A stretch of 38,081 nucleotides of DNA, taken from the IMG/VR virus record IMGVR_UViG_3300048599_000906, positions 1 to 38,081 of that record. The stretch is one strand, 5' to 3'. This stretch comes from a virus. Its lineage: Duplodnaviria > Caudoviricetes. A program made the translations under genes and the position numbers. This document shows positions 1,708 through 38,081 of this stretch, piece after piece (the first letter of the stretch is position 1; each line of letters starts with the position of its first letter). The notes under the pieces are model-generated. The model was not told where the DNA came from, did no database searches, and was given only the letters and a program-made list of their open reading frames with translations.

Positions 1708-2262
1708 ATGAAAATGACTATAAAAATCGATCCCCCCGAAATACTCGGGGATCGCGGCTTGCAGTTTGCGGTGATGAGGGCTACGGCCCTCGGAATAAAT
1801 AGAGGGGCAGTTGCCGGTAGAGCGCTCCTCGCCCAGGGAGTGCGTGAAGAGTTTACGGCTAAAAGCTCAGCCATCAAAAGCCGCGTGACAATTAAAAAAG
1901 CAAACATGCGATGGTTAAGAGCTGAGATTATCATTAACGGAAAGCCCCTGCTGTTATCTGTATTTAAAACAACTGGTGATGGTAAAAAGCGCATTGTAAA
2001 AATACAGGTAAAGAAGGGCACAGGGATGAAACCCCTTAAACATGCATTCAGGGCTCGAATGAATGGGATTGATGCCATATGGCAGCGAAAGGGTAAGTCT
2101 CGTTTCCCTGTTAAGGGCTTGCGCGGTCCGTCCGTGCCGGGCATGATAAGGGCAACTATATTCAAAAAACTAGAAACACGCATGAATGAGCGCGCCCGAG
2201 CAGAGGTTGCTCAGGCAATACAATACGCAGTCGGAAAGGGTCGCGTTCATTATGGGGAGTAG
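1708..2262 (+). CDS. Lambda gpZ-like minor tail / tail completion protein
   Basis: Basic 184-aa protein with AINR-like (GINR), VKKG..KPLKHAF, QRKGKSRFPVKGLRGPSVP motifs characteristic of the Minor_tail_Z family. Confidence 0.75.
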   Translation: MKMTIKIDPPEILGDRGLQFAVMRATALGINRGAVAGRALLAQGVREEFTAKSSAIKSRVTIKKANMRWLRAEIIINGKPLLLSVFKTTGDGKKRIVKIQVKKGTGMKPLKHAFRARMNGIDAIWQRKGKSRFPVKGLRGPSVPGMIRATIFKKLETRMNERARAEVAQAIQYAVGKGRVHYGE

Positions 2263-2269
2263 TTTTTAT

Positions 2270-2315
2270 GGGTCCTTCCCCGGGGGGCACACCATGCGGG
2301 CCACCCCGACGCGCA
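2270..2315 (+). other. Lambda-type cos site (cosQ plus cosN-like)
   Basis: GGGTCCT (identical to lambda cosQ) at 2270-2276, then about 22 nt later a GC-rich core TGCG-GGCCACCCCGACG-CGCA; the phage encodes a GpA-type terminase. Confidence 0.7.
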
Positions 2316-2350
2316 AAAACGGTCTAGCGTCAGAAAAAATTTTTGAGGGT

Positions 2351-2446
2351 TCGGTTCGCATGCCCCTCGGGACCCGCAAGGGGATCAGCATCGGTTTGCA
2401 TGCCCCGCGGGGTCCGGAAGGGGGAAAAGCAGCGGTTAGCCTGCCC
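2351..2446 (+). repeat. Three direct repeats CGGTTnGCnTGCCC at 40/41-bp period downstream of cos
   Basis: cggttcgcatgccc (2352), cggtttgcatgccc (2392), cggttagcctgccc (2433); units 1 and 2 align over about 40 bp. Confidence 0.8.
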
Positions 2447-2484
2447 GGACGGGCAGTAAAATAGCGTCAAGGGAGAATAGAGGG

Positions 2485-4521
2485 ATGGCGACAAAGAAGG
2501 AAAAGGCAACTGAAGAAAAGCAGAGCAAAACAACAGGCAAAACAACAGGCAAGAAAACGGCAAGCGGAGACAAAAAAACAAAAGACGTGAAGAAAAAGCC
2601 GCCCACAGGACAGAAAAAAACGACAGCCGACGACGACCAGGCGGCGGCTTCAGCAGAGGCCCCGGTCTCGGTAGACGCTGAATTCCGGCTCTTGAACATG
2701 TCACAGATCAAGATAGGCCAGAACTACCGCAAAACGGTGAGCGAGTCAGGCATGGATGAATTGACCGCATCGGTGCGGTCAAAGGGCGTTATTCAGCCGG
2801 TCCTGGTACGGCCCTCCGGCCCTATTATCTCCCCGCCCGAATTACGCGGCCAGATGCAGTATTTTTTGGTTGCAGGCCGCAGGCGATACCTCGCAGCTCA
2901 GAGGGCTGAGCTGAAAAATATACCTGCGATGATCAGGGAGCTGTCAGACGTGGACGCTCTGGAGATCCAGGTAATTGAAAATACGCAGCGCGAAGACCCG
3001 AACCCTCTTGAGGAGGGCTGGGGCTTTGCTGAGCTAATCGAAAAAGGCAAACATACTGTTGAAACGCTCGCCGCGAAATTGGATAAATCGGCTGATTATG
3101 TTTTACGGCGGATAAAACTGACATTATTACCCGAGGCCGCGCAGGAAAAAATCGGCTCAGGGGAGCTGTCGATCGGGCATGCGCTCTTGATCACGCGGCT
3201 TAAACATCTGAGCGAACAGAAAGAATTTCTCAAAATGCTCATGAGTCAGGACATGACGGTCCGCGACGCGCAGAGCCGCATGCGGAACTTCAGCTCTGAC
3301 ATACAGGACGCTGTTTTTGACACGTCGACCTGTCAAAAGTGCGCTTATCTCTCATCGAATCAGACCGCGCTTTTCCCTGAGCTGAAAAAATCGGGGCAGT
3401 GCATGGACCGCGGCTGCTATTTTGCAAAGACTCGTGACTATTATCAGGACATTATCGCCGCGCGTCGGAACGAGGGTTTTAAAATCATCTCCTACAGCGG
3501 GGCCGGGCAGAAAACTATCGACGAGTTGCGCTATGCGTATGGCGGACGCGGTAACATGCTGCGTATAGCCGAGACGGACGACTATCCTGCCATGCGCCCG
3601 CGGCGATATAAAACCGAATGCATGGAATGCAAGGAAAACCACGCCTATTATGTAGCCGAGGGCAAAAACCATGACGGCGGCAAGCGGGTCGATTTCGGCG
3701 AAATATGCCTGAACAAAAAATGCTTTAACAAAATGAACAATTCCAATGCAGGTGACAGCGACAACGACAGCGACACGCCTGCAAGCGACAATAACCGCTA
3801 TAAAGTTCAGGAGGCGCGCCGCCGTTTCCTGAACAGGGTTTTGCCCGAACGCATCCAGGCGTCCCCTACCCTGCAGAAACGCCTCTGTATTCATCACCTG
3901 TTAACCCTTTACGGCAATTCCTCGGCTGAGCTGAGGGCTGTTATAGGGATATATCACAAGCCCATGCCTGAGTACGACTATGACGGCAGCCGGTATTATT
4001 TTGCAGTTATGTCTATCCCTGAAGAGCTGCTGGACACGGTCATCGGCGCCGCCTTGGCGGCAGCAGTGCCCGAGACGTCCGACCAGGCGCTTACACTCAT
4101 GCTGGCAGAGGCGGGCGTGGACCTCGGGAATGAGACGGTGATTGACGAGGAATATCTGAAGGCCAGGCAAAAGCCGCAGCTGCTGGAGCTACTGAAGGAG
4201 TTGGGACTGGATGTTATGACTTCTTCGAAGATTTTATTGGATTCCGCTGAGGGGAAAGATCCCCGAAAAGCCGACATTATCGAGGCGATTCCCGCTCAGG
4301 ACCTGCGCGGGAAAATGTCTAAGGCATTTATTGAGGCCTTTGACGTGGAGAAAATAATCGGCAACGCGAGAGACGACGAAAACCAGGACGAGCTCACATG
4401 CGACATATGCGGCAGGCCAGGAGACGATCTCGGCGATCAGGAGACCATGACTGTAACCGACGACGGGACGCTTTGCCCGTCATGCATGCTCGATAAACAG
4501 GAGGAATCTAATGGATGTTAA
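2485..4521 (+). CDS. ParB/RepB/Spo0J-family protein with Lys-rich N-terminal tail and Cys-rich C-terminal extension
   Basis: LTASVRSKGVIQPVLVRP, LVAGRRRYLAA, IENTQREDPNPLEE and a following HTH; several CxxC clusters. Confidence 0.88.
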   Translation: MATKKEKATEEKQSKTTGKTTGKKTASGDKKTKDVKKKPPTGQKKTTADDDQAAASAEAPVSVDAEFRLLNMSQIKIGQNYRKTVSESGMDELTASVRSKGVIQPVLVRPSGPIISPPELRGQMQYFLVAGRRRYLAAQRAELKNIPAMIRELSDVDALEIQVIENTQREDPNPLEEGWGFAELIEKGKHTVETLAAKLDKSADYVLRRIKLTLLPEAAQEKIGSGELSIGHALLITRLKHLSEQKEFLKMLMSQDMTVRDAQSRMRNFSSDIQDAVFDTSTCQKCAYLSSNQTALFPELKKSGQCMDRGCYFAKTRDYYQDIIAARRNEGFKIISYSGAGQKTIDELRYAYGGRGNMLRIAETDDYPAMRPRRYKTECMECKENHAYYVAEGKNHDGGKRVDFGEICLNKKCFNKMNNSNAGDSDNDSDTPASDNNRYKVQEARRRFLNRVLPERIQASPTLQKRLCIHHLLTLYGNSSAELRAVIGIYHKPMPEYDYDGSRYYFAVMSIPEELLDTVIGAALAAAVPETSDQALTLMLAEAGVDLGNETVIDEEYLKARQKPQLLELLKELGLDVMTSSKILLDSAEGKDPRKADIIEAIPAQDLRGKMSKAFIEAFDVEKIIGNARDDENQDELTCDICGRPGDDLGDQETMTVTDDGTLCPSCMLDKQEESNGC

Positions 4522-5143
4522 GGGCATACTGACTGAGTGGCTTATAAGTCATGGCTATGACGGTCTCATTTATCCCGGCGAGTGTTCGTGCCTCATCACC
4601 GACGATTTCCCGTGCGACAATCTGGGCGTGGATTGTACGCCTGCATTTAGAATTGCCGCCTGCAAGGGCGCTGTTACATGCAAACATAGCAGCTGCGAAA
4701 CGACAGAGAACTGCGGCATAGCTGAGTATTGCGTTACATCCGTCCGCCCTGCTGACCGCCCTGAGCCGCACACGAAAAAGCTGATCATCACGATTGAGCA
4801 AATGGCGCGCATGGCGCACGAGGTTAATCGCGCGTACAGGCAGGCGATAGGTGAAGAGCCAGGGCCTGAATGGGGCGAGGCCCCGGCACAGACAAAGAAG
4901 AGCATGCTCAACGGGGTGATATTTCATCTCGTCAATCCCACGGCCGGCCCTAAGAACTCACACGAGAACTGGCTAAACGACAAGCGTTTGAGAGGCTGGA
5001 CATTCGGCAGCGAAAAGAACGAGGCGCGGCGCGAACACCCCTGCATGGTGCCCTTTGCTGAGCTGCCGATCGAGCAGCAGGCGAAAGACTATATTTTCCG
5101 CGCGGTCGTGCATTCCCTGGCCGCGCTGTTACCTGAGGTTTGA
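4511..5143 (+). CDS. Cys-rich N-terminal domain fused to a phage RyR-like domain
   Basis: ARMAHEVNRAY...SHENWLNDKRLRGWTFG..K.....HPCMVPFAELPIEQQAKD matches the RyR repeat pattern. Confidence 0.75.
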   Translation: MDVKGILTEWLISHGYDGLIYPGECSCLITDDFPCDNLGVDCTPAFRIAACKGAVTCKHSSCETTENCGIAEYCVTSVRPADRPEPHTKKLIITIEQMARMAHEVNRAYRQAIGEEPGPEWGEAPAQTKKSMLNGVIFHLVNPTAGPKNSHENWLNDKRLRGWTFGSEKNEARREHPCMVPFAELPIEQQAKDYIFRAVVHSLAALLPEV

Positions 5144-5268
5144 TCGTGTACGGACTGGTCGGCTACTCAATAAAAACGCGCATAAACAGGGCATGGCCGC
5201 TGATTTTTGTCGGCTCACTGCTGCTTATTCTGCTGCTGACAATAGCTGATTGCTGGCTCGGCGCATAA
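5140..5268 (+). CDS. Small single-TM hypothetical protein (42 aa, below ORF-track cutoff)
   Basis: TTG start overlaps the upstream stop; MIVYGLVGYSIKTRINRAWPLIFVGSLLLILLLTIADCWLGA; stop lies in the attC core GCATAAC. Confidence 0.4.
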   Translation: MIVYGLVGYSIKTRINRAWPLIFVGSLLLILLLTIADCWLGA

Positions 5269-5385
5269 CGCGTAACGGAGGCAACCGCCGGATGGGTTGG
5301 GCCCTTGTGCCCACCGGAAAGGAACCGAGAGATGACGAATGAACCGACCGCACAGGCAGCGTCCGGGTTGAACGCAGGGTTGGGC
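5263..5385 (-). other. Integron attC-like site 1 (partly degenerate at the R' end)
   Basis: Minus strand: R'' GCCCAAC-CCTGC-GTTCAACC-CGGAC ... TCCGGCGGTTGCC ... R' GTTACGC or GTTATGC. Confidence 0.65.
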
Positions 5386-5703
5386 GGGGGCAAATACGAC
5401 CAGTTTTTTCTGCTTGAAATTGCGGAGAGCGCCAACCCACCAGAAAACCAGCCCGGTGATTCCGAAGATTGGTGCGGCGATGTGGAGATGTTGGCCCGCG
5501 ATGGATGGAAGGTGACTTTCTTTTACGATTGTGGTGAGTTGGATTACATCGATCATTTCATTTCTCCGGATGGAGAGTTGATTGACGTATGGCCCGATAC
5601 GCCGTTTCAGGGCGAGGAATGGCTGCCAACTATGAACTGGCGCAGCATGGGCGATTTGGCTCGGCTGAGAAGAGCCCAACGCAAAGATAAGCGGCGGAGG
5701 TAA
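5332..5703 (+). CDS. Acidic hypothetical protein (cassette ORF 1)
   Basis: ATG lies inside attC1; 123 aa; stop lies inside attC2. Confidence 0.65.
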   Translation: MTNEPTAQAASGLNAGLGGGKYDQFFLLEIAESANPPENQPGDSEDWCGDVEMLARDGWKVTFFYDCGELDYIDHFISPDGELIDVWPDTPFQGEEWLPTMNWRSMGDLARLRRAQRKDKRRR

Positions 5704-5776
5704 GGGATGAAAGAAAGCCAAGACATAGCGAAAAAGGACGGGGCAAACTCCCGTCCGCTTGAGCGCGACGTTAAAT
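5674..5776 (-). other. Integron attC-like site 2 (canonical)
   Basis: Minus strand: ATTTAAC-GTCGC-GCTCAAGC-GGACGGGAG ... CTCCGCC-GCTTATC-TTTGC-GTTGGGC; 103 bp. Confidence 0.85.
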
Positions 5777-5925
5777 GCGAGATTTGCATTACTTGCAAGG
5801 GTGTTTTGACCAAACGTTCGCCTCTCTATGATCAGGGTATATGCCTTTATTGCGTGCGCTTAGACACTCGTATGGGTGCCTATCAGAGTAGGCTTAGGCG
5901 GCGAGGCAGGTATGGCAGTCATTAA
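5707..5925 (+). CDS. Small Cys-rich (CxxC...CxxC) hypothetical protein (cassette ORF 2)
   Basis: GGAGG RBS and ATG lie inside attC2; CITC...CLYC. Confidence 0.6.
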   Translation: MKESQDIAKKDGANSRPLERDVKCEICITCKGVLTKRSPLYDQGICLYCVRLDTRMGAYQSRLRRRGRYGSH

Positions 5926-5928
5926 TTC

Positions 5929-6061
5929 ATTTAATGCCGGAACTCAGCGGCGAGGAGGAACTATGGGATATTGGTGTAACGATTGTGGACACTGGCATGA
6001 CGATGACCCGCATAAACTGAACGAGGGTAAACCGGAGTCCGCCTGTAGTGACTTGTTCGGC
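5929..6061 (-). other. Integron attC-like site 3 (R' GTT changed to ATT)
   Basis: Minus strand: GCCGAAC-AAGTC-ACTACAGGCGGAC ... GCC-GCTGAGT-TCCGGC-ATTAAAT; 133 bp. Confidence 0.8.
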
Positions 6062-6262
6062 GTTTTATTGGGGATAGTCAATACAGCGCAGAATAACCCG
6101 GATAGGTGCATGGCCGATATATGCAACGATAATTTTGCAGTTTATAACGTGCCGCTGCACGCCGAAATGACGGATGATGAAGAGTGGCCGGTACAGATTA
6201 CGCCGAACAATAATTCTACAGCATCTATGCAGCATATCCCGGAATGTCCGGGCAAAGACTGA
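5963..6262 (+). CDS. Hypothetical protein with N-terminal CxxC-x-H motif (cassette ORF 3)
   Basis: GAGGAGG RBS at 5952-5958 and ATG lie inside attC3; 99 aa. Confidence 0.6.
   Translation: MGYWCNDCGHWHDDDPHKLNEGKPESACSDLFGVLLGIVNTAQNNPDRCMADICNDNFAVYNVPLHAEMTDDEEWPVQITPNNNSTASMQHIPECPGKD
6200..6222 (-). other. Array-terminal core site (attI-like or secondary insertion site)
   Basis: ACGCCGAAC (6200-6208) is the exact reverse complement of GTTCGGCGT (6055-6063); no attC hairpin lies beyond it. Confidence 0.55.
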
Positions 6263-6283
6263 AAGGGAAAGAGAGATTAGATA

Positions 6284-6461
6284 ATGTCTAAGCGTATATA
6301 TAAATGCGACGTTTGCGGCATGGAATGAAAATTGGTCATGGTATGGCAGCTATGGAATTTTAGAGGAAGAGGGCATTGGCAAATGTATAGTCGTGTGCTC
6401 GGCTAAATGCAAGGCCAAAGCCATTGAAGAGGCGGATACTGCAGGCATTAGAGGGGAATAA
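6284..6461 (+). pseudogene. Frameshifted small zinc-finger gene
   Basis: MSKRIYKCDVCG in one frame continues as WNENWSWYGSY...VVCSAKC in another; that frame ends in a TAATG coupling to the next ORF. Confidence 0.55.
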
Positions 6462-6628
6462 TGAGCGCGTCAAATAGAGAAATTACGGATGCAATGATTC
6501 GTCAGCTTTGGCTCGCAATACATAGGCTGTGCGTAAACAGCGAACTCACTGATGCCGATGTCGAGTTATGGGGGCATTTGGTAAAGCATCCGGCGATACA
6601 AGACAGGCTGCAGAGCGCAAAAAAATAA
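6461..6628 (+). CDS. Hypothetical protein (55 aa)
   Basis: AGAGGGG RBS; MSASNREITDAMIRQLWLAIHRLC...; ends just before the terS RBS. Confidence 0.55.
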   Translation: MSASNREITDAMIRQLWLAIHRLCVNSELTDADVELWGHLVKHPAIQDRLQSAKK

Positions 6629-6637
6629 GGGGAATTC

Positions 6638-7165
6638 ATGAGCGGCACAGAAACAAATATGCAATTCGGTGATCAGCAGGATCTGATCCCAGCGGTCGAT
6701 CTCGGGCAGATTTACCTGACCACGCCCGAGGTTGCGGCATTGTACGGCGTGACCGAACGCGCGGTGCAGCTGTGGCATACGGAGCGGCAGTGGGTGAGCC
6801 CCGACCGTCGCGGTCTTTGGCGGCTTGCGGATGTAATCCTCGGCGTGTATGAGGGCCAGGCCGCGGCGATAAACAAGAAAAAGGGAGACGCCGGGTTTGA
6901 GCTTGATCAGCTGGAGCGGCGCGAACAGCGGGCGAAAACAGAGCGCGCGGAATTTGAGCTCGGGCGGGCGCGTGAACAATTTATAGACGCGGCTGAAGTG
7001 CGGCGGACGGCATTTGAGCAGGGCCGGACCGTGAGGGACGCGATTGAAAACATACCGTCCCGGATCTCCGCGCTGTTAGCCGCTGAAACCGATACACATA
7101 AAATCAAGGAGATGCTGCATGCAGAGCTGCATCAGGCCCTTGAAACCCTTACCACGGAGGCGTAA
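6638..7165 (+). CDS. Terminase small subunit (Nu1-like)
   Basis: N-terminal wHTH (TTPEVAALYGVTERAVQLW), coiled coil AKTERAEFEL, C-terminal IPSRISALLAAETD...LHQALE; upstream of terL. Confidence 0.8.
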   Translation: MSGTETNMQFGDQQDLIPAVDLGQIYLTTPEVAALYGVTERAVQLWHTERQWVSPDRRGLWRLADVILGVYEGQAAAINKKKGDAGFELDQLERREQRAKTERAEFELGRAREQFIDAAEVRRTAFEQGRTVRDAIENIPSRISALLAAETDTHKIKEMLHAELHQALETLTTEA

Positions 7166-7701
7166 TGGCACAGACTATTATCACTGCAAGCGGCCAATAT
7201 TTTAACCTGGAGACCCCTGAGCCCAGCGATATCAATATAGACGACATCGCGCATGCGCTCTCGAATATTTGCCGGTATACCGGTCACACCCGTGTTTTCT
7301 ACAGCGTAGCGCAGCATGCAACCCTCGTGAGCCGTGTCGTGCCTGAGGAGTGTGCATTATACGGCCTGCTGCATGACGCGGCAGAAGCATATATCGGTGA
7401 TGTATCGCGGCCGCTGAAGGCCCTGCTCCCAGACTATCGCCTTTTAGAAGTAGGTGTTGAAGCCGCGGTCTTCAGGCGTTTTCGCCTAACGCAGCCGATG
7501 CCCGCTGTAGTGAAACATGCCGACCTCGTTTTATTGCGCACAGAGCAACGCGATCTGCTGGGCGCTGACAGACATGTATGGCAGAGCACGGAAGGGTTAG
7601 AGCCCCTGCCTATCGTGATCGACCCCATGCCGCCCGCAGTGGCCCGCAATGCCTTCCTCGCCCGGTTTTATGAGTTGCTGCCGGCCGAAATAAAAATATA
7701 A
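7165..7701 (+). CDS. HD-superfamily phosphohydrolase (YfbR/YfdR-like)
   Basis: DIAHALSNICRYTGH..FYSVAQH...LLHDAAEAYIGD...VKHAD. Confidence 0.9.
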   Translation: MAQTIITASGQYFNLETPEPSDINIDDIAHALSNICRYTGHTRVFYSVAQHATLVSRVVPEECALYGLLHDAAEAYIGDVSRPLKALLPDYRLLEVGVEAAVFRRFRLTQPMPAVVKHADLVLLRTEQRDLLGADRHVWQSTEGLEPLPIVIDPMPPAVARNAFLARFYELLPAEIKI

Positions 7702-7712
7702 GGAGCGACGAT

Positions 7713-7958
7713 ATGAAGAAAAACGCACAGGCCTCTGCTTTGAACGTCCAGGAGGGCGGGGACCACTACAAAAAGATGGGCGCATATCAGCCCTGGGAGG
7801 TCCTGGCAAAATGGTTATCCCCGGCCGAGCTCAAGGGGTATGCCAAGGGCACGGCTGTCGCCTATCTGGCACGGGAAGAGAGCAAGGGCGGCCGCACAGA
7901 CATTAAAAAAGCGGCGCATACACTGCAGCTATACCTGGAGCTAACGGAAGGCAAGTAA
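7713..7958 (+). CDS. DUF3310-family protein
   Basis: QEGGDHY...QPWEV...GY.KG.A..Y..R...KGG..DIKKA.H.L. Confidence 0.82.
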   Translation: MKKNAQASALNVQEGGDHYKKMGAYQPWEVLAKWLSPAELKGYAKGTAVAYLAREESKGGRTDIKKAAHTLQLYLELTEGK

Positions 7959-7962
7959 CACT

Positions 7963-9963
7963 GTGACAGCAGCTGAAACATATAGAGCCGCATTCCTCGC
8001 CGGCATGAAGCCCACGGAGGACCTCACGGTTTCCGCCTGGGCTGATAAATACCGCATCATACCCAAAGAAGGCGGCGCAAAAGAGCCGGGCAGATGGAGG
8101 ACTTCGCGTGTGCCGTATTTGCGCGAAATAATGGACTGTCTGAGCGCGTCGAGCCCGGTTACGCGCGTTGTCGTAAAAAAAGGCACTCAGCTGGGCCTGA
8201 CAGAGGGCGGCAATAATATGTTCGGCTACACGGTGCACATAGACCCTGCCCCGATGATGATACTACTACCCACAATTGATATTGCAAAGCGGCACAGCAA
8301 GACAAAAGTAAAAAACACTATATTGCAAACGCCCGAGCTGGCAGAGCGCATTCCGGAAGCGCGTGAGCGCGACAGCGGCAACACGGTGCTCTTCAAGGAA
8401 TTCCCGGGCGGGTCGCTGATAATCTCCGGCGCGAACAGCGCGGCCAGCCTGCGCAATGTGAGCATAAAAAAGCTAATCCTGGACGAGGTGGACGCATACG
8501 AGCCCGACCTGGACAGCGAAGGCGACACCTGCCTGATCGCCATTAAACGCACCGACGCCTTCGGGGACGATAAAAAGGTGCTTGAAATGTCGACGCCTAC
8601 AATCAAAGGCGTCAGCCGCATTGACGCTGATTATGAGAATTCGGACCAGCGGCATTATCATGTGCCCTGCCCGTTTTGCGGACACAAACAGGAACTCGTC
8701 CAGGACGGGTTTGTATACGATGCCGACGATTTTGAACTGACAGGAGAGGTATATTACCGCTGCAGCTCTTGCAATGAGCTGATTGCAGAGCACCATAAAA
8801 CCTACATGCTCGGCAACGGAGAGTGGGTGGAGTACAACCCCGGACACAGAACGCGCGGATATCATCTGCCGTCGTGGTACTCTCCGCTGGGGTTCCTGTC
8901 ATGGCGCGAACTCTGGCAGGAATACCTGGACGCCCGGAAAAACATGGACATGCTTGCAATGAAGGTCTGGAAGAACACGCGCGCGGCCGAGGTATGGGAC
9001 GATGAGGAGCAACCCGCTATTGACAATGCTCAGTTGTACAATCGCCGGGAGGGGTACGGTATAACCGTGCCCATGGCCGGGCTCGTCCTGACCTGTACGG
9101 TAGACGTGCAGGACGATCGTCTTGAGGCGGAGATTAAAGCGCACGGCTTTAACGAGGAGAGCTGGACTATAGACTATGAGGTTATAGACGGTGTGCCTGA
9201 TCAGGCGGCGACCTGGGACAAACTGACGGAGCTGCGCCGGCGCACCTACTGGCACGAATCGGGCGCGCCCATGCGGGCGGCCATAACCCTGATCGATTCC
9301 GGCGGGCATTTTAGTCAGCAGGTCTATGACTATTGCCGCAAACACAGGCGGGAAAAGGTTTTCTGCAGCAAGGGCAGCCAATTCCCAGGGAAACCCATTT
9401 TCGAGCGCGCCAAGCGGCAAAAGGGCGGGCTCTCGGGCAAGGTCGATTTTTTTATCGGCACGGACACAGCAAAGGACACCCTTTTTGCCCGGCTCAACAG
9501 GGCCAGGCAGGCGGCGATAGAGACAGAGGTATTTTTACCCCTGACCGACAAGCCCGTGGAGATTTGCGCGTATTATTTGCATTTTAACGAGGCCTGCGAC
9601 GAGGAGTATTTCCGTCAGCTGGTCGCGGAAAAATCTGAGCGGCAAAAAATAGGCTCACGCATTAAACGTAAATATGTGCAAATCAGGGACCGTAACGAGG
9701 CGCTGGACGTGAACGTGCTGGCCCTGGCCGCAGTGCGCATATTGAAACCCAATTTCACGCAGCTCATCACCGCGCTGGCCAAGAAAAAGGCCTCTATGCC
9801 GCCGGCTACACCGCCCCTGCCCCAGGCAGCCTCGGCCGCGCAGGCAACTGCCGACAACCCGCCGCCGGAGAGCGCACAGGCCCCCAGGCCGATGAAACAG
9901 CGTATAAACAGGACAGTGATCGCCCGCGGCCGAGGCCGCGGCTGGATGAACGGATGGAGGTAA
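7963..9963 (+). CDS. Terminase large subunit (lambda GpA family)
   Basis: PGRWRTSRVPYLREIMD, KGTQLGLTE, LILDEVDAY, MSTPTIKG, CPFCG/CSSC, DVQDDRLE, RNEALD. Confidence 0.96.
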   Translation: MTAAETYRAAFLAGMKPTEDLTVSAWADKYRIIPKEGGAKEPGRWRTSRVPYLREIMDCLSASSPVTRVVVKKGTQLGLTEGGNNMFGYTVHIDPAPMMILLPTIDIAKRHSKTKVKNTILQTPELAERIPEARERDSGNTVLFKEFPGGSLIISGANSAASLRNVSIKKLILDEVDAYEPDLDSEGDTCLIAIKRTDAFGDDKKVLEMSTPTIKGVSRIDADYENSDQRHYHVPCPFCGHKQELVQDGFVYDADDFELTGEVYYRCSSCNELIAEHHKTYMLGNGEWVEYNPGHRTRGYHLPSWYSPLGFLSWRELWQEYLDARKNMDMLAMKVWKNTRAAEVWDDEEQPAIDNAQLYNRREGYGITVPMAGLVLTCTVDVQDDRLEAEIKAHGFNEESWTIDYEVIDGVPDQAATWDKLTELRRRTYWHESGAPMRAAITLIDSGGHFSQQVYDYCRKHRREKVFCSKGSQFPGKPIFERAKRQKGGLSGKVDFFIGTDTAKDTLFARLNRARQAAIETEVFLPLTDKPVEICAYYLHFNEACDEEYFRQLVAEKSERQKIGSRIKRKYVQIRDRNEALDVNVLALAAVRILKPNFTQLITALAKKKASMPPATPPLPQAASAAQATADNPPPESAQAPRPMKQRINRTVIARGRGRGWMNGWR

Positions 9964-22537: not shown

Positions 22538-25006
22538 ATGGGCAATGACAATACAGTCCGCATAAACATTGAGGCGTACAACAAAACCCAGGCCGCGTTT
22601 GCGGAGCTGAAAAATTCCTTCATGTCGCTCTCAAACTCTGCCGGCGGCAGCATAGAGGGCATACTCGGCAATATCACAAAAATAAACCCCGCTCTGCTCG
22701 GTATAAGCGCGACCGTCGGCGCAGTCACCAGCGCCATCGGCCTGGCCTATACCAGCCTGAAAAAATGGATGGAGGTCGGCGAGCAGCTTAACGCCATGTC
22801 GCAGAAAACCGGCATTTCGGTTGAGGATCTCTCTTTACTTCGCTATGCCGTAACGCAGTCTGAAACAGACATGGAGACGCTCGAAAAATCGGTCGGCAAA
22901 TTCAGCCAGAAGATCGCCGCGGCCATGGCCAACAGCGGAAGCGACGAGGCCAAGGCGTTTAAAAAGCTCGGCATAAGTGTAAAGGACAGTGAGGGAAATT
23001 TAAAAAGCACCTTTAACCTGTTACTTGAAGTGGCCGACGCCATGGAGAATTTAAGCGACGGAGCCGTAAAGGTAGACCTCGTTAAATCGCTTTTCGGCAA
23101 AGGCGGCACGGCCCTTATCCCCTTGCTGAATGAGGGCAGCGAAGGCATAAGGAACCTGATGAAGCGCGCCGAAGAGCTGGGACTGTCGTTTACCACAGAA
23201 GGCGCCAAGGCCGCGGATGAAATGTCTGACAGCATAAAAGACCTCGGTTATGCCGTGGAGGGGCTGAAGCTGTCTATAGGCGCGCTGGTGGCAGGGCCGC
23301 TGCAGGATCTGATAGACCGTTTCAGCAAAAGCGACGCCTCAAAGTTGCGCAATGAAATACGCAAGATAAACGAAATGCTTGACGATCAGGGCGAACTCGC
23401 GGCAAAACGCATGTCGTGGCAGATGTCCGGCATGGCTGGGTTTATCCCGACCAACCTCGTGTTCAATGATCCAAGCGCGGCGTATTCCGACCAGGCGCGG
23501 CAGACCCTGAAACAGCGGAAAGAAGAATATCAGAAATTACTCGACGCCGATAAGGCCGAAAAAAAACAAAAAGAACAGCAGCGCGCGGACCTGGCAAAAC
23601 AGCAGGCCCAGGACCAAACCGATAAAAAAGCGCTGGACGACAAAAAAGCTACAAATGACCAGATGTTGCAGTTGCAGCAACAATATTTGAAAGAATCGCT
23701 CGATCTGTATAACGCAGAGGTAAAGGCGCGTGAATCGGCCCTGGGCGTTATGCGAGATCTCGGACTGAAGACGGAAGAGCAATATTATAGTGAGAAGCAG
23801 GCTCTCGAGGTAGAGGCTTTGCAGACGTCTATTGACACCCTCGAAAAAGAGATAGCGGCCAGACAGGCCGCATGGGACAAAATAAAGGACGCTTACAAAG
23901 AAGACAGCGAAAAGCAGAAAGCGGCGTTTGAGGTTGAAAAAGATATAGCCCAGAAACGCGCGGAGATAAATAAAAAACAGATAGAGCTTGAGGCCAAGGC
24001 CACTGACGAAATAAAGGGCTATATGGAGGCGGCGAAGAAAACCGCAGAGGGCATAAAAAACAGCTACGGCGAACAGGAAAAGGCCGCGACTGAATGGCAA
24101 AAAGTTTTTACCGACGCCTACGACAACGCAATAAAAAAAGTAGACGAGCTGAAAGATAAACAACAGCAGCTGACAGAGGGCATACAGTCTGCCGAAAAAT
24201 TCCTCTCAACCTGGGGCAAAAAGGCAGTTACGGCGGAAGAGCAGAAGGCGATAGACTACAAGGCCCTTCAGGGCCGCCTGACGCAGGAAAATTTCAACTA
24301 CACAGACCAGGCGCAGACGCTTGGGCTCATGAAAGACATCCAGGCGTTTATGACGCAATACAAGGGCACTAAGGGCTTTTTCGAGTTCGGCAGCTCTTCC
24401 GAGGGCTGGGAGGCCGAGCGCATGAAGACCGCCCTCGAGGACCTGACGAAAAAGGCGCGGGGCATGCAGGACCAAACCGCGCAGGACCTTGACATATGGC
24501 AGAGGTTTGCAAATGACATGCAGAGCAGCGCGCAGGCCATGGGCGAAAAGGTGGAATGGCTGAAGACCAAAATTGAAGAGCTCAATAAGGCTGTGAATTT
24601 CGACAGGCAAGTGTATATAGACACGTCAGCCGCCGAATCGCAGTTAAATAATTTACTCATACAAATTGCAAATGTTAAGGCCCAGCTTGCGGCCCTTGGC
24701 GGCTCAAGCTCGGGCCAGGTGACCGTTACGACCCAGGCCGCAGAGGTAGCGGCTCCGTCTCTGGCTGTTGGCACGCCTTACGTCTACAAGGGGGGCCTTG
24801 TAAACGTGCACGCCGGCGAGGCGGTGCTGACAAAAGAGCAGAATTCAACCGGCGCGGCAGGATCACAATTTGTAGTGCAGGGTGGTATAATTGTCCAGGG
24901 CGCTAATAAGGACGGCGCTACGCTTGCGCGCGAGATAGATGGGGAATTGGCGCGGCTGTATAAAAACAACCGCTCAGCCCTCGGGCAGGAAATGAGGAGG
25001 CGATAA
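22538..25006 (+). CDS. Tail tape measure protein
   Basis: 822 aa, helical; SQKTGISVEDLS.L.YA, LFGKGG..LIPLLNEGSEGI, C-terminal AVGTPYV...VHAGEAVLT. Confidence 0.92.
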   Translation: MGNDNTVRINIEAYNKTQAAFAELKNSFMSLSNSAGGSIEGILGNITKINPALLGISATVGAVTSAIGLAYTSLKKWMEVGEQLNAMSQKTGISVEDLSLLRYAVTQSETDMETLEKSVGKFSQKIAAAMANSGSDEAKAFKKLGISVKDSEGNLKSTFNLLLEVADAMENLSDGAVKVDLVKSLFGKGGTALIPLLNEGSEGIRNLMKRAEELGLSFTTEGAKAADEMSDSIKDLGYAVEGLKLSIGALVAGPLQDLIDRFSKSDASKLRNEIRKINEMLDDQGELAAKRMSWQMSGMAGFIPTNLVFNDPSAAYSDQARQTLKQRKEEYQKLLDADKAEKKQKEQQRADLAKQQAQDQTDKKALDDKKATNDQMLQLQQQYLKESLDLYNAEVKARESALGVMRDLGLKTEEQYYSEKQALEVEALQTSIDTLEKEIAARQAAWDKIKDAYKEDSEKQKAAFEVEKDIAQKRAEINKKQIELEAKATDEIKGYMEAAKKTAEGIKNSYGEQEKAATEWQKVFTDAYDNAIKKVDELKDKQQQLTEGIQSAEKFLSTWGKKAVTAEEQKAIDYKALQGRLTQENFNYTDQAQTLGLMKDIQAFMTQYKGTKGFFEFGSSSEGWEAERMKTALEDLTKKARGMQDQTAQDLDIWQRFANDMQSSAQAMGEKVEWLKTKIEELNKAVNFDRQVYIDTSAAESQLNNLLIQIANVKAQLAALGGSSSGQVTVTTQAAEVAAPSLAVGTPYVYKGGLVNVHAGEAVLTKEQNSTGAAGSQFVVQGGIIVQGANKDGATLAREIDGELARLYKNNRSALGQEMRRR

Positions 25007-33523: not shown

Positions 33524-34165
33524 TCAGTCTAAAACTACCTTACGCCTGCAATCTACTATTTTACCTACAACTTTAAATATACACTCCTCCGTTAGTTCCA
33601 TGCTGCGCCCCATGGCGTCGTAGAGCAGCTCGGCGCCCTCTTTGGTTTTTACATAGCGACGGGCGAATAAAGCCCCGTGGCGGTCGGTTACGGCTACATA
33701 CGAGCCGCTTTCGGGCTGCGCGTCGGTGCGGAAAAAGACCATATCTGCGACGGATATGGGCGGGTTCCGGCTGTTATCCGCTGCGATAAAAACCAGAGCT
33801 CCCTGCAATTCCTCGTCCTCAGGCAAATACATGTAGCTGACTTCCTCCCCCTCTTTATATGGCCACCTGTTTATAATAGGCGCCTTATAAATATTACCGC
33901 CCGGGGGCGGAATTTGACGATTATAATATGTTTTTTCTTCGCAGACCATGCTCGCTGTAGGCTCATCTATTCCTAACAGGTAATCGCTTGATACGCAGAA
34001 AAACGTGGCTATTTTAAAAATATTTTCACCGCCCGGCATGCTTTTGCCTGCCAAATAATCTTGGAATGTCCTGTATTTTATATCACATAGTTCCGATATC
34101 TCCCTGAGATTTAAGGGAGAATTGCTAACTAACTCTTTAAGACGTGTTTGCACGATATTTTGCAT
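33524..34165 (-). CDS. CI-like repressor (XRE HTH plus degenerate S24 domain)
   Basis: LREISELCDIKYRTFQDYLAGKSMP...IATFFCVSSDYLLG; C-terminal DNSRNP.I...D.V...G..V....FARR...VVGKIV. Confidence 0.88.
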   Translation of the reverse strand: MQNIVQTRLKELVSNSPLNLREISELCDIKYRTFQDYLAGKSMPGGENIFKIATFFCVSSDYLLGIDEPTASMVCEEKTYYNRQIPPPGGNIYKAPIINRWPYKEGEEVSYMYLPEDEELQGALVFIAADNSRNPPISVADMVFFRTDAQPESGSYVAVTDRHGALFARRYVKTKEGAELLYDAMGRSMELTEECIFKVVGKIVDCRRKVVLD

Positions 34166-34172
34166 AGCCCTC

Positions 34173-34202
34173 TTGACTTTGTACGGTTTTCCGTGCTATC
34201 TT
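34173..34202 (+). promoter_or_regulatory. Early rightward promoter with an operator-like palindrome in its spacer
   Basis: TTGACT-N18-TATCTT with extended TG; GTACGG-TTTT-CCGTGC at 34181-34196; GGTTTTCCGTG repeated at 34423-34433. Confidence 0.7.
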
Positions 34203-34496
34203 TAGGCATGGCGACTACACTGCACATGAGTTTTTACCTTGCACGCATCCCCATATGTACTACATATGCGTCAGCCCTGCTCCTGTTTTGTTGGGGTGTC
34301 ATCGCGCGCCAAATGGGCGCAGCGATACCGTCGCCAACGGCCCCCAACAATACCGCATGGCGGCGTCCAAACCTCCCAAAGGCTCCGGGCGCCGTCATGC
34401 TCTATTACTACATTAATTATAAGGTTTTCCGTGGCCATAATCAATTATGGCCGTTAGCAATAATTTACACAATTATATTAATGATGGAGGACTATA

Positions 34497-34958
34497 ATGC
34501 GATCGTGTGAGGCCTTGCAGGCAGCCATAAATGGCAAAACCGTAGAATTTGCGAAGGAGTTGCATTTAGCCACGCCGACGCTGCATAAATGGCAGGAACC
34601 AACGGGCGATTTTACGGACAGCGGCGCATACAACCCGCTAGATCGCATTGAGACCATAGTTCGCAAGGCCCTGGAGCTGAAAAGCCCCGGCGCGCTTAAC
34701 CCTATATATTACCTCTGCGAACAGCTTGGTTTGCTGGCCATCCCGATGCCCACTATCACTGCAAGCGATGTGATTACTGATGATCTCGTTAAAAGTATTG
34801 AGCGTTTCGGCGCCTTGGCGCAGACGGCCAGCAAGGCCATTGCGGACCAAAAGATTGAGCCCCATGAGGCGCGCGATATACGCGCCGACGGCATGTCTGC
34901 CATACGGGCGATCCTGACCATAGTCAAGGATGCCGAGCAGGCGGCAGGCCTGAAGTGA
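34497..34958 (+). CDS. Phage regulatory CII-like (CP76-type) protein
   Basis: N-terminal HTH (FAKELHLATPTLHKWQEP), NPLDRI, C-terminal FG.L......A.AD.KI...E...I. Confidence 0.7.
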   Translation: MRSCEALQAAINGKTVEFAKELHLATPTLHKWQEPTGDFTDSGAYNPLDRIETIVRKALELKSPGALNPIYYLCEQLGLLAIPMPTITASDVITDDLVKSIERFGALAQTASKAIADQKIEPHEARDIRADGMSAIRAILTIVKDAEQAAGLK

Positions 34959-35422
34959 CGAATCGCAAAGATAAGCGCCGCCGCAATAGGACGGTCGGCC
35001 CTGAAGACACTACTGCCATGGTGATCCTCCCTTCAGGCGCGCCCGCCCTCCCACGCGGCGCACAGACGCGCAACGACGGGCCTGCAGTTGCCCCGTCGGC
35101 TCCGGTCGCATATACTGCGCCGGAGCGCGCGTCCTCCCATATCTCGCGGCCCGCTGCGGCCCAGGAGGCATCTATGAAAAATGCGCTGTTGGTGGTACTG
35201 CTGATCGGTCTCATAATGCTGTCGGGGGTGGCGGTGGATCTCGCAACTACGCGGGTGAACGCCGAGCAGGCGGTAGAAAACGCATACGTGAACGGCTACA
35301 TGGACGCCCGAAAAGGCGTGTTGCCCAAGTACCCTGAGTACACGAAATGGAACAAGCCTTCGCCGTTTACGGTCGCGGGCGCGGGAGACCAGGGCATGCG
35401 TCATACCCTGGGCGGTAAATAG
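34955..35422 (+). CDS. Hypothetical membrane-anchored protein (alternative start at 35174)
   Basis: GTGA overlap; AGGAGG RBS before MKNALLVVLLIGLIMLSGVAV. Confidence 0.5.
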   Translation: MTNRKDKRRRNRTVGPEDTTAMVILPSGAPALPRGAQTRNDGPAVAPSAPVAYTAPERASSHISRPAAAQEASMKNALLVVLLIGLIMLSGVAVDLATTRVNAEQAVENAYVNGYMDARKGVLPKYPEYTKWNKPSPFTVAGAGDQGMRHTLGGK

Positions 35423-35424
35423 CC

Positions 35425-35685
35425 ATGCGCACGGGGCAGTCTCATGCCGCGCTGCTGGATAACAGCCCCCGGTTGCAGCGCGTTTTGACGCTGCTGCAGG
35501 AAGGGCCAAAAACGACCCGGGAGCTTGCGCGCATGGCTGATGTATGCGCGGTGAACAGCATAGTGAGCGAGCTGAGACGTAACGGCTGCCTTATCGCCTG
35601 CGCGGCCGTGGACGGCCGGAAAGGCATTTATCTTTACACGCTTATTTTCTGCCCTGTAAAGGAGGGGCTGTGTTTAACCGCATAA
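35425..35685 (+). CDS. Winged-helix DNA-binding protein
   Basis: RVLTLLQEGPKTTRELA....CAVNSIVSELRRNG..I. Confidence 0.7.
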   Translation: MRTGQSHAALLDNSPRLQRVLTLLQEGPKTTRELARMADVCAVNSIVSELRRNGCLIACAAVDGRKGIYLYTLIFCPVKEGLCLTA

Positions 35686-36068
35686 TTTTAATAGGCAACC
35701 TCACCAAAGACCCGGAGGTAAGATATACGCCCGGCGGGACACCGGTTGTCACCGTGCCTATCGCCGTCAACTCGAAATTCAAACAGGCGGACGAGATGAA
35801 GGACGAGGTCCTCTTTATCGACTGCGTGGTCTTCGGCAAGCAGGCCGAGGCCTGCGGCCAGTATCTCAGCAAGGGCAGGTCTGTGCTTGTGGAGGGCAGG
35901 CTGCGGGAGAGACGCTGGGAATATGAAGGCCAGAAGAAGAGCAAGATGGAGGTTATAGCGAACACTGTGCGTTTCCTCTCAAAGAAGGAGAGCGGCGCGG
36001 GGGCCTCCGGCGCGTCAGGCGCATATAATGACATACCAAGTGAGGATACAAACCTTGAGCCGTTCTAG
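35670..36068 (+). CDS. ssb: Single-stranded DNA-binding protein
   Basis: NRIILIGNLTKDPEVRYTP, YLSKGRSVLVEGRL, acidic C-terminal tail ending EPF. Confidence 0.97.
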   Translation: MFNRIILIGNLTKDPEVRYTPGGTPVVTVPIAVNSKFKQADEMKDEVLFIDCVVFGKQAEACGQYLSKGRSVLVEGRLRERRWEYEGQKKSKMEVIANTVRFLSKKESGAGASGASGAYNDIPSEDTNLEPF

Positions 36069-36414
36069 CGCAACCCTCGATACAACTTTCACCTGCGGCC
36101 CTCACGGCTGCGAAGGGCTGTCAATCCGTTGCTGTCTCAGCAGGCAGCAGACGGCTGCAGCTATCGCCAACAAGGGCCGCAATTGGCGCGCCTGCAAGGG
36201 GCAGAGATACGAGTCCCCGGAATATTACAACTGTCTCTCGTGCCCCCAGGGCAAAGTTTTTGCGCAGCAGTTCCCTGACTTCAAACGCGCGAAGCGCAGC
36301 CGACGCGAACAGGCTGCTATTAGCGGCAAGGAGGGCGGGCGTAAATCCGCCGGTAAGCGGCGGTACGCAAACCCATACAGTTTTCATTTCGAGGCAGGAG
36401 CAAAGCATGCCTGA
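36028..36414 (+). CDS. Cys-rich hypothetical protein with basic C-terminus
   Basis: FTC....C..LS...C..RQ...CLSCPQG; start codon uncertain. Confidence 0.55.
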   Translation: MTYQVRIQTLSRSSATLDTTFTCGPHGCEGLSIRCCLSRQQTAAAIANKGRNWRACKGQRYESPEYYNCLSCPQGKVFAQQFPDFKRAKRSRREQAAISGKEGGRKSAGKRRYANPYSFHFEAGAKHA

Positions 36415-36814
36415 CATTAATTTATTAGATTTCTGCAGGACATGCGGCGAGCGGACGAAGGCTAAGGGTTTTAATACCTCTCAGCACAATTTGCAAATTG
36501 CGCTTATTGCCACCGAAGTGGCCGAGGCCCTGGAAAACCTGACGTTGCCGCGGGATGAGCGTATTAGCCTGCTGATTTGCAAGCTGCTCGTATGGGCTAA
36601 CGACCTGGAATATTACCGCCGCATGTCGACGCATATTTACGACAATGGCGCTGTGCGCAATATGCCCGCCCTGCTGGAAGAGCTTGCGGATATCCAGATC
36701 CGCCTGGCCAGCTATATTGGCGGCAACGGCTGGACTGAACAGTTTATCGCCGCGCTGACGGCAAAAATGGAGAAAAATCAGGCCCGGCCGCATAAACATG
36801 GCAAGGGGTTTTGA
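36407..36814 (+). CDS. MazG-like nucleotide pyrophosphohydrolase
   Basis: IALIATEVAEALE...EELADIQIRL...KMEKNQARPHKHGK; AGGAG RBS. Confidence 0.82.
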   Translation: MPDINLLDFCRTCGERTKAKGFNTSQHNLQIALIATEVAEALENLTLPRDERISLLICKLLVWANDLEYYRRMSTHIYDNGAVRNMPALLEELADIQIRLASYIGGNGWTEQFIAALTAKMEKNQARPHKHGKGF

Positions 36815-37074
36815 TCGGGAAAATGAAAGTCGCAAAAGAAATAAGGCCCATTGATGTACTCTGCACTGCCAGGTGGCTGACCATGGCCGAGGCCTGCGAG
36901 TACAGCCGTAAATCTATTAACACCCTCAAAAAGCTTATCGCATCGGGTAAAATATATGCAGATAAGCGGGGCGAGTGGACTGTCGACCGGCAGAGCATTG
37001 ATGATTATTTCAACGCCCGCCGGGACGACATGAATATTTTCCTCGCCAAAAAAAGGAGGGTGTTATGCAACTAA
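36811..37074 (+). CDS. Excisionase-like HTH protein
   Basis: WLTMAEACEYSRKSINTLKKLIASGKI.A....GEW.VDRQSID; overlaps the integrase start. Confidence 0.8.
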   Translation: MIGKMKVAKEIRPIDVLCTARWLTMAEACEYSRKSINTLKKLIASGKIYADKRGEWTVDRQSIDDYFNARRDDMNIFLAKKRRVLCN

Positions 37075-38081
37075 AGCGGCGGGGCAATGGGTATTATTAC
37101 ATTTATTTCGACCGACAGCGGCAGAAGAGTCTGAAAACCAAGGATCTCGTTTGCGCTGTAAAACTCCTCGAAATGGAAGAGCAGGTCGAGCGCAAGGCGC
37201 AGGTGTATGAACTCGGCAAGGTGGCGCGCATCAAAATATCCGAGCTGCATGCTGAATACCTGCGGCATCGGGCTATTTCGGATGTTTCGAGCGGCACCAT
37301 CAAAAACGATGACCTGGCATTTAAAAAGTTTATTGAGTACAATGGCGATCTTTTGGCGCGCTCTGTAAAACGTGAGACCATTGACACATACAAGACAGAG
37401 CTGCTAAGTAAAGGGCTGACCCGGGAGTATATAAATACCCTGCTTCGGCCTATGCTCACAGCGTTCGGCTATGCGCTCGATAAGGGCTATATCGACAAAA
37501 ACCCTTTTCTGAAGCGGCGCGGCGAAAAATGGAACCTCACGTTCCGCACCGATGACGAGGTGCCCAGGTATTTGTCTATGTCCGAAATCAAGGCCCTGCT
37601 GGGGAAAATCGAAGATCCTGATTACCGGGTCGTAATAAATTTCTTCCTCTACACCGGCCTGCGCAGGGCTGAAGTGGCGCGGCTGCAGGTCACGGATATC
37701 GATCTGGAAAATAACCTCATAATTGTGCGCAAAACTAAGAGTAAGCGGGGCCGGACGGTGCCCATACATGAGGATCTGCGGCCGATGCTGCGGCAATTTA
37801 TTAGGGGCGATATCGGCCCGTTATTCCCGCGCTGGAGATCTGCCGACACCTACACTACCATGTTTGTGGAGCTGGCCAAATCGGCGCATGTGGATGCGAG
37901 GCTGCATGATCTAAGACATACCTTTGCGAGTTATCTTGCCATGGCCGATACCGATTTGAAGCGTATCAAGGACCTTCTTGGTCATAGCGATATGAAGACC
38001 ACGGAACGCTATGCGAAGGTGAAAACAGAGCACCTGCGTCAAAGCGTCAATAAACTGAAATTCGGAGGCGGGCAGGGATAA
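37065..38081 (+). CDS. int: Tyrosine integrase
   Basis: YTGLRRAE (R), KTK (K), HDLRHTFAS (HxxR), LLGH (H), TTERY (Y); short N-terminal beta arm-binding-like segment. Confidence 0.96.
   Translation: MQLKRRGNGYYYIYFDRQRQKSLKTKDLVCAVKLLEMEEQVERKAQVYELGKVARIKISELHAEYLRHRAISDVSSGTIKNDDLAFKKFIEYNGDLLARSVKRETIDTYKTELLSKGLTREYINTLLRPMLTAFGYALDKGYIDKNPFLKRRGEKWNLTFRTDDEVPRYLSMSEIKALLGKIEDPDYRVVINFFLYTGLRRAEVARLQVTDIDLENNLIIVRKTKSKRGRTVPIHEDLRPMLRQFIRGDIGPLFPRWRSADTYTTMFVELAKSAHVDARLHDLRHTFASYLAMADTDLKRIKDLLGHSDMKTTERYAKVKTEHLRQSVNKLKFGGGQG

What the first reader, a model, noticed from the sequence alone, without database searches (positions are those of the whole stretch)
5263..6222. Integron-type cassette array inside a prophage, with antisense genes that start inside the attC sites and no IntI
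Seen: three minus-strand elements have attC anatomy (R'' core ending AAC, 5 nt, L'', variable loop, L', R' core). attC2 reads ATTTAAC-GTCGC-GCTCAAGCGGAC...GCCGCTTATC-TTTGC-GTTGGGC. attC3 reads GCCGAAC-AAGTC-ACTACAGGCGGAC...GCCGCTGAGT-TCCGGC-ATTAAAT. attC1 starts GCCCAAC-CCTGC-GTTCAACCCGGAC. The core sites flanking each unit are complementary, which is the footprint of circular cassettes: GTTGGGC(5379)/GCCCAAC(5674), GTTAAATG(5770)/CATTTAAT(5928), GTTCGGCGT(6055)/ACGCCGAAC(6200). Units are 411, 255 and 273 bp. All three ORFs lie on the opposite strand, co-directional with the phage operon, and their RBS, ATG and N-terminus lie within the attC loop. Known: integron cassettes usually carry the ORF upstream of and co-oriented with attC and need IntI. 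The only integrase here lacks the IntI-specific insertion. Inference: the phage uses a host integron integrase in trans to gain and shuffle small accessory genes in a phage-adapted cassette format.
Basis: partly seen in the sequence, partly recalled or inferred. Interest (0 to 1): 0.9.

Follow-up and report, generated by a model that had tools for sequence, protein, structure and literature searches.

The report
Orphan reversed-cassette integron in a prophage
This prophage carries three small genes between integron-type recombination hairpins, facing the opposite way to bacterial integron genes, and the row ends in a likely docking site matching those of phage integrons, so it is likely a partly decayed phage gene-swapping platform whose enzyme gene is missing from this record.

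Summary
Models trained only on bacterial attC sites pick out these sites: attC2 (5674-5776) is good, attC3 is real but has ATT for GTT, and 'attC1' is decayed and may be two broken sites. The ORFs lie on the bottom strand. The prophage integrase is not an IntI. New here: 6206-6238, just past the last AA|C junction, is 26/33 identical to the site in front of intI in several phage contigs, so the array probably keeps an attI. In IntI loci of viral contigs 96 of 126 cassettes were reversed; in bacterial ones 4 of 94. Relatives of two of the three genes sit in reversed cassettes elsewhere, and their neighbours change at AA|C. Best reading: an orphan platform of a phage-type integron, now mostly frozen. 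Insertion at its attI would need a related phage IntI, not just any host IntI. Phage attC clusters that IntI1 recombines are published (Qi 2023); I found no paper on the reversed layout or this attI family. This scan noted the layout before on other DNA. Nothing is shown by experiment.

The parts
5263..5302 (-). decayed terminal attC remnant (R'' GCCCAAC at 5296-5302, R' GTTATGC at 5263-5269, L'' missing); left junction AA|C at 5268/5269
   Evidence: CM 15.4 bits, E 0.25; sequence
5309..5385 (-). attC1 half: intact R''-spacer-L'' arm (5362-5385); own L'/R' degenerate (GGTGGGC at 5309-5315) or lost
   Evidence: left arm 19.8 bits, best in window; CM 8.5 bits; computed folding probability 4e-9 to 6e-6
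5332..5703 (+). ORF A, 123 aa, DUF7693-like (26.3 bits, cut-off 27); first 18 aa encoded by the attC1 arm; stop lies in the attC2 loop
   Evidence: homologs in reversed cassettes
5674..5776 (-). attC2, the only near-canonical site; junction AA|C at 5679/5680
   Evidence: CM 30.2 bits; scanner 32.3; a contig of run X1 matches 5512-5782 with no difference
5707..5925 (+). ORF B, 72 aa, two CxxC motifs, start inside attC2 loop; no sequence homolog found
5929..6061 (-). attC3 with G1-to-A change in R' (ATTAAAT); junction AA|T at 5934/5935
   Evidence: CM 14.8 bits; scanner 25.1
5963..6262 (+). ORF C, 99 aa, unnamed family (IVNTAQ...DRCM..CNDNF); starts inside attC3 loop and reads through the last junction and the attI-like site
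   Evidence: 36 homologs; homologous cassettes in L283-L285
6206..6238 (-). likely attI of the phage-integron type; crossover AA|C at 6207/6208 on the + strand; no intI follows
   Evidence: 26/33 identity to the site upstream of intI in L165 and L205-L207
37065..38081 (+). prophage tyrosine integrase, not an IntI; likely a bystander

Best explanation
This is likely an orphan platform of a phage-type integron: a likely attI site at 6206-6238 heads three cassettes whose genes lie on the bottom strand of their attC sites, and the record holds no intI gene. Inferred working: an IntI joins the folded bottom strand of a circular cassette's attC to the double-stranded attI at AA|C. The gene is on that bottom strand, so each new cassette lands in the direction of the phage operon, at the far end of the row and next to attI (order of arrival A, B, C). 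The attC loop supplies the ribosome site and start codon, and the next site often supplies the stop, so no integron promoter is needed and the upstream phage transcript would read through. In complete phage integrons intI follows attI in the same direction; here it has been lost or was never copied with the site. The array is predicted to be mostly frozen: the G1 change in attC3 and the broken arm of attC1 would block single excision of A, B and C. attI could still take new cassettes if a related phage supplied the cognate IntI.
For: Shown by computation: (a) attC anatomy above chance. (b) Orientation: in viral-contig IntI loci 96 of 126 inter-attC units were reversed, 14 sense and 16 unclear (32 of 34 loci mostly reversed; 78 of 80 loci scanned, 2 duplicates dropped). 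In bacterial loci 4 of 94 were reversed, 81 sense and 9 unclear. (c) attI: 46 of 64 viral IntI loci examined have a conserved AAC-N4-ATT...TAA site between the first cassette and intI. The window 33-mer matches two such sites at 26/33, the best of 2055 AAC/AAT positions in the window (next 22). In 2.5 Mb of fetched loci all 8 matches of 24/33 or more are these sites or second copies in the same phages (5 distinct sites). One phage record holds two copies with identical 30-nt cores and one intI; the second copy follows a reversed cassette and has no intI behind it. (d) Mobility: an ORF A homolog cassette in 5 contigs is 90-100% identical just inside the left AA|C and 17-38% outside; at the right end 78-95% inside and 28-48% outside in 9 of 10 pairs. 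An ORF C homolog cassette is 95% identical inside and 17%/20% outside between L283 and L285. (e) Own-core complementarity was 4/4 in 95 of 118 viral cassettes against 13 of 118 for in-array pairs. From papers: G1 must match between partner sites, with a 10^3-10^4-fold loss otherwise (PMC2811028 section 13); attI is specific to its cognate IntI (PMC2095811 passages).
Against: No recombination was measured. A general weight matrix of 39 phage attI sites scores the window site only 10.3 bits: best in the window, but 70 of 200 shuffled windows reach it, and it falls to 2.2 without the three closest sites. The attI call therefore rests on position plus likeness to one subfamily. No intI remnant follows the site. 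No close relative of this prophage was found, so gain or loss at these very junctions is unseen. 20 of 29 ORF A homolog loci scanned have no attC, including all 9 viral ones. Computed folding probability of attC2 in the array (2e-4) is below the 10th percentile of reference sites (9e-4). The record is rated 58% complete. The base change in attC3 is not covered by an independent matching contig.
Confidence: 0.7

Rival explanations
1. One reading: the phage borrows the host's chromosomal IntI and actively gains and shuffles these cassettes.
For: IntI1 recombined 5 of 6 tested phage attC sites (PMC9892861 main text). attC sites are accepted by several IntIs (PMC2095811). attC2 is near-canonical.
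Against: The terminal site matches phage-integron attI, and attI is IntI-specific. Bacterial arrays almost never hold reversed cassettes (4 of 94). attC1 and attC3 are damaged.
Confidence: 0.12
2. Satellite docking site: the cognate intI lies elsewhere in the same phage or in a neighbouring element of the 143-kb contig, outside this 38-kb record, as with the second attI of L165.
For: The record is rated 58% complete and its source contig is 142,959 bp. L165 shows two sites and one intI. Shewanella prophage M16-3 has an integron plus a CALIN, each with attI (PMC9892861).
Against: The window has replication, packaging, head, tail, lysis-like, repressor, excisionase and integrase genes and ends at the integrase, so it looks near-whole (the lysis call is my reading of the translations). 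A complete circular phage, MW202573, has reversed cassettes and no IntI.
Confidence: 0.12
3. The first cassette entered at a chance genomic GWT (attG) site and the others stacked on it; the right flank is ordinary phage DNA.
For: IntI inserts cassettes at many GWT sites (bioRxiv 2022.09.11.507474 passages). The general attI matrix is not significant window-wide.
Against: 26/33 identity to intI-adjacent sites at exactly the predicted junction; none of 2054 other AAC/AAT positions exceeds 22.
Confidence: 0.04
4. Chance hairpins or terminators between small phage genes.
For: Only one site exceeds 20 bits with the covariance model. The free folds are not canonical. One minus-strand terminator-like stem lies in the attC2 loop.
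Against: 0 of 100 shuffles reach the weakest site. Homologous genes are bounded by strong attC sites elsewhere: 52 of 52 hits on the minus strand.
Confidence: 0.02

Closest known systems
CALINs in phage genomes (Qi et al. 2023, PMC9892861; main text parts 1-4 of 7 and supplement part 1 of 2 read, figures and Dryad file not seen)
   Same: Two or more attC sites in a phage with no intI; small cargo genes. One of their phages, MW202573, has the same reversed layout when I scan it (3 of 3 units).
   Different: The text I read does not mention reversed genes, starts inside attC or a phage attI family, and suggests illegitimate capture. Their TJE1 is canonical. Here an attI-like site heads the array.
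Complete integrons: intI, attI, attC cassettes (Cury 2016, PMC4889954 passages)
   Same: attC grammar, AA|C crossover, complementary cassette cores, one attI at the head of the array.
   Different: No intI. Genes are on the bottom strand and read toward attI; no sigma-70 promoter match in 4400-7000; translation starts lie inside attC.
Shewanella prophage M16-3 CALIN with its own attI (PMC9892861)
   Same: An intI-less array with attI inside a prophage.
   Different: Its cassettes are sense (6 sense, 1 unclear), its attI is of host type and intI is in the same prophage.
Inverted-integrase integrons (Treponema; PMC4889954 passage)
   Same: intI ends up co-directional with the cassette genes.
   Different: There intI is flipped relative to attC. 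In the phage loci intI and attC are in the regular arrangement (183 of 190 hits on the minus strand) and the genes are flipped.

Membership tests
CALIN (Cury 2016) | at least two attC sites in a cluster | tested here: met
   With my own bacterial-trained models: attC2 30.2 bits, attC3 14.8 bits at E 0.35; 32.3 and 25.1 with the scanner, 0 of 100 shuffles. Only one site passes the 20-bit bar Qi used; IntegronFinder's own model was not available.
CALIN (Cury 2016) | no intI nearby | tested here: met
   No TIGR02249 match over the cut-off in the record; 46 phage IntIs hit only the 37-kb integrase at E<1e-3.
Complete integron | intI with the IntI-specific insertion | tested here: not met
Complete integron | attI at the head of the array | tested here: met
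   By likeness and position only: 26/33 to intI-adjacent sites; general matrix weak; function untested.
Canonical gene cassette | ORF on the top strand, upstream of its attC | tested here: not met
   ORFs A and C have homolog support on the + (bottom) strand; B rests on the open frame and start signals only.
Canonical gene cassette | intact GTT/AAC core and L boxes at every site | tested here: not met
   attC2 yes; attC3 ATT; attC1 lacks L'
Canonical gene cassette | complementary core and inverse core around each unit | tested here: met
   A 7/7, C 9/9, B all but the first base
Integron system | IntI-dependent, bottom-strand-specific recombination | not testable with these tools
   needs the conjugation assay
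Integron system | intI in the host genome | not testable with these tools
   only the 38-kb record is held

The most novel reading that the evidence does not exclude
Phages run their own integron lineage, with a distinct attI family and cassettes built back to front so that attC doubles as the translation start. They scatter intI-free attI docking ports into other phages such as this one, which then load genes from a shared phage cassette pool using IntI supplied by co-resident phages.
Probability: 0.45. Interest if true: 0.85.

Novelty: new variant of a known kind. Interest (0 to 1): 0.64.

Why it matters
Integrons are treated as bacterial devices in which attC follows the gene and a promoter beside attI drives the newest cassette. 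A phage version with flipped genes would be a site-specific route to the rows of small variable genes in phage early regions. It would also explain the attC-derived peptide ends on many phage hypothetical proteins. It bears on how cassettes are made, which Cury 2016 calls unknown: any model must allow attC at the 5' end of the gene. This locus adds that intI-less phage arrays can keep an attI and gives a direct test of IntI-attI specificity. It is itself partly decayed.

Tried and rejected
Rfam: 2 chance miRNA matches in 3000-9000, nothing relevant. No close relatives by ORF A, small terminase or an attC2 motif in viral contigs. BLASTN of the array gave 1 short hit in phages and none in plasmids. 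The attI pattern found only the L165 contig in viral contigs and nothing in metagenomes. The 38-bit subfamily matrix and the pattern were chosen knowing the window site, so I do not count them as tests. The first orientation count, by ORF length alone, left 65 of 135 viral units unclear and was replaced by an amino-acid score. No PHROG, NCBIfam or PADLOC family for ORFs A-C, so a defence role is unsupported. The ESM Atlas gave only unnamed clusters for ORF B. The [SP]N count at the junction of ORF C homologs (19 of 34 placed, background 11%) used a crude anchor, misplaced in several rows, and is only suggestive. Sequencing runs: no RNA holder listed; small shares only; run X3 gave no test. An attI-like look of the L283 flank did not stand out against 61 reference sites. 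The CM hit at 23707-23753 (E 1.5) inside the tape-measure gene is treated as chance. Host identity was not resolved (best terminase matches about 40%).

Full report
Setting. The window is a whole provirus record, rated 58% complete, from a 142,959-bp contig. The array lies in a + strand operon between ParB-like and RyR-domain genes and the terminase genes. The only tyrosine recombinase (37065-38081) aligns to four IntIs with a gap over the IntI-specific insertion and scores 86.9 bits against a cut-off of 265.

Are the sites real? I fetched 80 bacterial IntI loci, found attC sites by rule (81 hits, 11 dropped as palindromic doubles or implausible) and built two models without any window sequence. 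The covariance model (48 sites) recovered the published sites in TJE1, MW202573, M16-3 and the Vibrio prophage. In the window it gave attC2 30.2 bits, attC3 14.8 bits, and split attC1 into 15.4 and 8.5 bits. The weight-matrix scanner (70 sites) gave 32.3, 25.1 and 14.9, with leave-one-locus-out scores mostly 24-50. No hit in 100 shuffled windows reached 14.9. So attC2 is good, attC3 is real with ATT for GTT, and attC1 keeps one arm. Computed probabilities of the recombinogenic fold were 2e-4, 1e-6 and at most 6e-6, against medians of 0.35 (115 bacterial sites) and 0.09 (137 viral sites). Modelled as excised circles, B and C rise to 3e-2 and 1e-3. A contig from an independent run matches 5512-5782 exactly.

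Are the genes real and reversed? ORF A has 23 homologs and ORF C has 36. In both, the conserved body begins at or just after the R'' box. Several homologs carry attC-like peptide ends while others do not. ORF B has no homolog in the near-length search. Of 33 ORF A homolog loci I scanned 29 (4 duplicates dropped): 9 had attC sites, all on the opposite strand; in 7 an attC directly precedes the gene, and in 6 the start codon is in its loop. These 9 are metagenome contigs that I did not prove to be phage. Five near-identical copies have different neighbours, with identity dropping at AA|C on both sides. All 3 viral loci of the ORF C family show the same layout, and two share a 287-bp cassette with unrelated flanks.

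The layout belongs to phage integrons. In 78 viral-contig IntI loci (2 duplicates dropped) 96 of 126 units were reversed; in bacterial loci 4 of 94. Some viral loci are related strains, so the counts are not independent. The most upstream start codon lay inside the cassette's own attC in 37 of 96 reversed units, and the frame ran into the next site in 35 of 96. Starts inside attC are thus common but not the rule. These arrays read toward attI and an intI in the same direction.

The attI. Reading the DNA between the first cassette and intI showed a conserved site starting at the AAC junction in 46 of 64 loci. The window's 6206-6238 sits at the same position and is 26/33 identical to the sites of L165 and L205-L207. 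It is the best of 2055 AAC/AAT positions against 61 reference sites, the next being 22. Against this, a matrix over the whole family is not significant window-wide (70 of 200 shuffles) and depends on the three closest sites. The L165 record has two copies and one intI; the second copy ends a reversed cassette and no intI follows it. L207 has two copies, each followed by an intI-like frame, one of them shorter. No intI remnant follows the window's site.

Mechanism. Shown: anatomy, orientation, homology of the terminal site, and movement of homologous cassettes at AA|C. From papers: cleavage between A and C on the bottom strand and the need for G1 identity (PMC2811028, section 13 and passages); attI specificity (PMC2095811, abstract and passages); IntI1 activity on phage attC (PMC9892861). 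Inferred: sequential insertion A, B, C at attI; expression by read-through from the phage operon; loss or non-copying of intI; present freezing because attC3 and attC1 are damaged; service in trans by a related phage IntI. The G1 experiments used paired double changes, whereas attC3 has a single change that leaves a G-T pair, so the size of the block is an extrapolation.

Literature. Nine searches returned Qi 2023 as the only study of attC in phage genomes; three returned no paper. I saw nothing on reversed phage cassettes or a phage attI family in the listings, or in the passages read from PMC8876359, PMC4889954, PMC13323075, bioRxiv 2022.09.11.507474 and 2026.09.14.751636. The library lacks most subscription journals. 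Qi's Figure 2D and Dryad annotation file, which I could not see, may show the reversed layout of MW202573. Earlier notes of this scan describe the reversed layout and orphan attI sites in other genomes; they are unchecked, and I relied on my own tests.

Verdict. A real, partly decayed, intI-less platform of a phage-type integron; a new variant of a known kind. Interest 0.64.

Noticed in passing
window 6284-6461 (+): Right after the attI-like site a small Cys-rich gene is broken by a frameshift after about 12 codons; related sequence occurs in contigs of runs X1 and X2.
   Followed up: partly
window 4511-4620 (+): The N-terminal part of the RyR-domain gene weakly resembles ORFs inside the phage integron arrays L149 and L102 (E 0.01-0.04); genes upstream of the array may come from the same pool.
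   Followed up: no
window 5342-5386, 5929-5950 and 6036-6057: Short contigs in runs X1 and X2 share these attC arms but have other loops or other cargo beyond them. This hints that attC modules are reused on different genes; the matches are short and from other organisms.
   Followed up: partly
L002 (MW202573) 1860-3740: A published phage CALIN has the reversed layout, a complete circular genome without IntI, and a half site 22/24 identical to the attC1 arm.
   Followed up: yes
L001 (TJE1) 1-1520: A phage array in canonical orientation, so both layouts occur in phages.
   Followed up: partly
L207 630-1543 and 3924-5017: Duplicated attI plus intI module, one intI shortened; a possible route to orphan attI sites.
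   Followed up: partly
L011 and L027: Two loci from bacterial genome bins have only reversed cassettes; they may be prophages.
   Followed up: no
window 1708-2262 and 33524-38081: Unusual gene order: a tail-completion (gpZ-like) gene among early genes, and the repressor-cII-ssb-xis-int block all at the right end.
   Followed up: no
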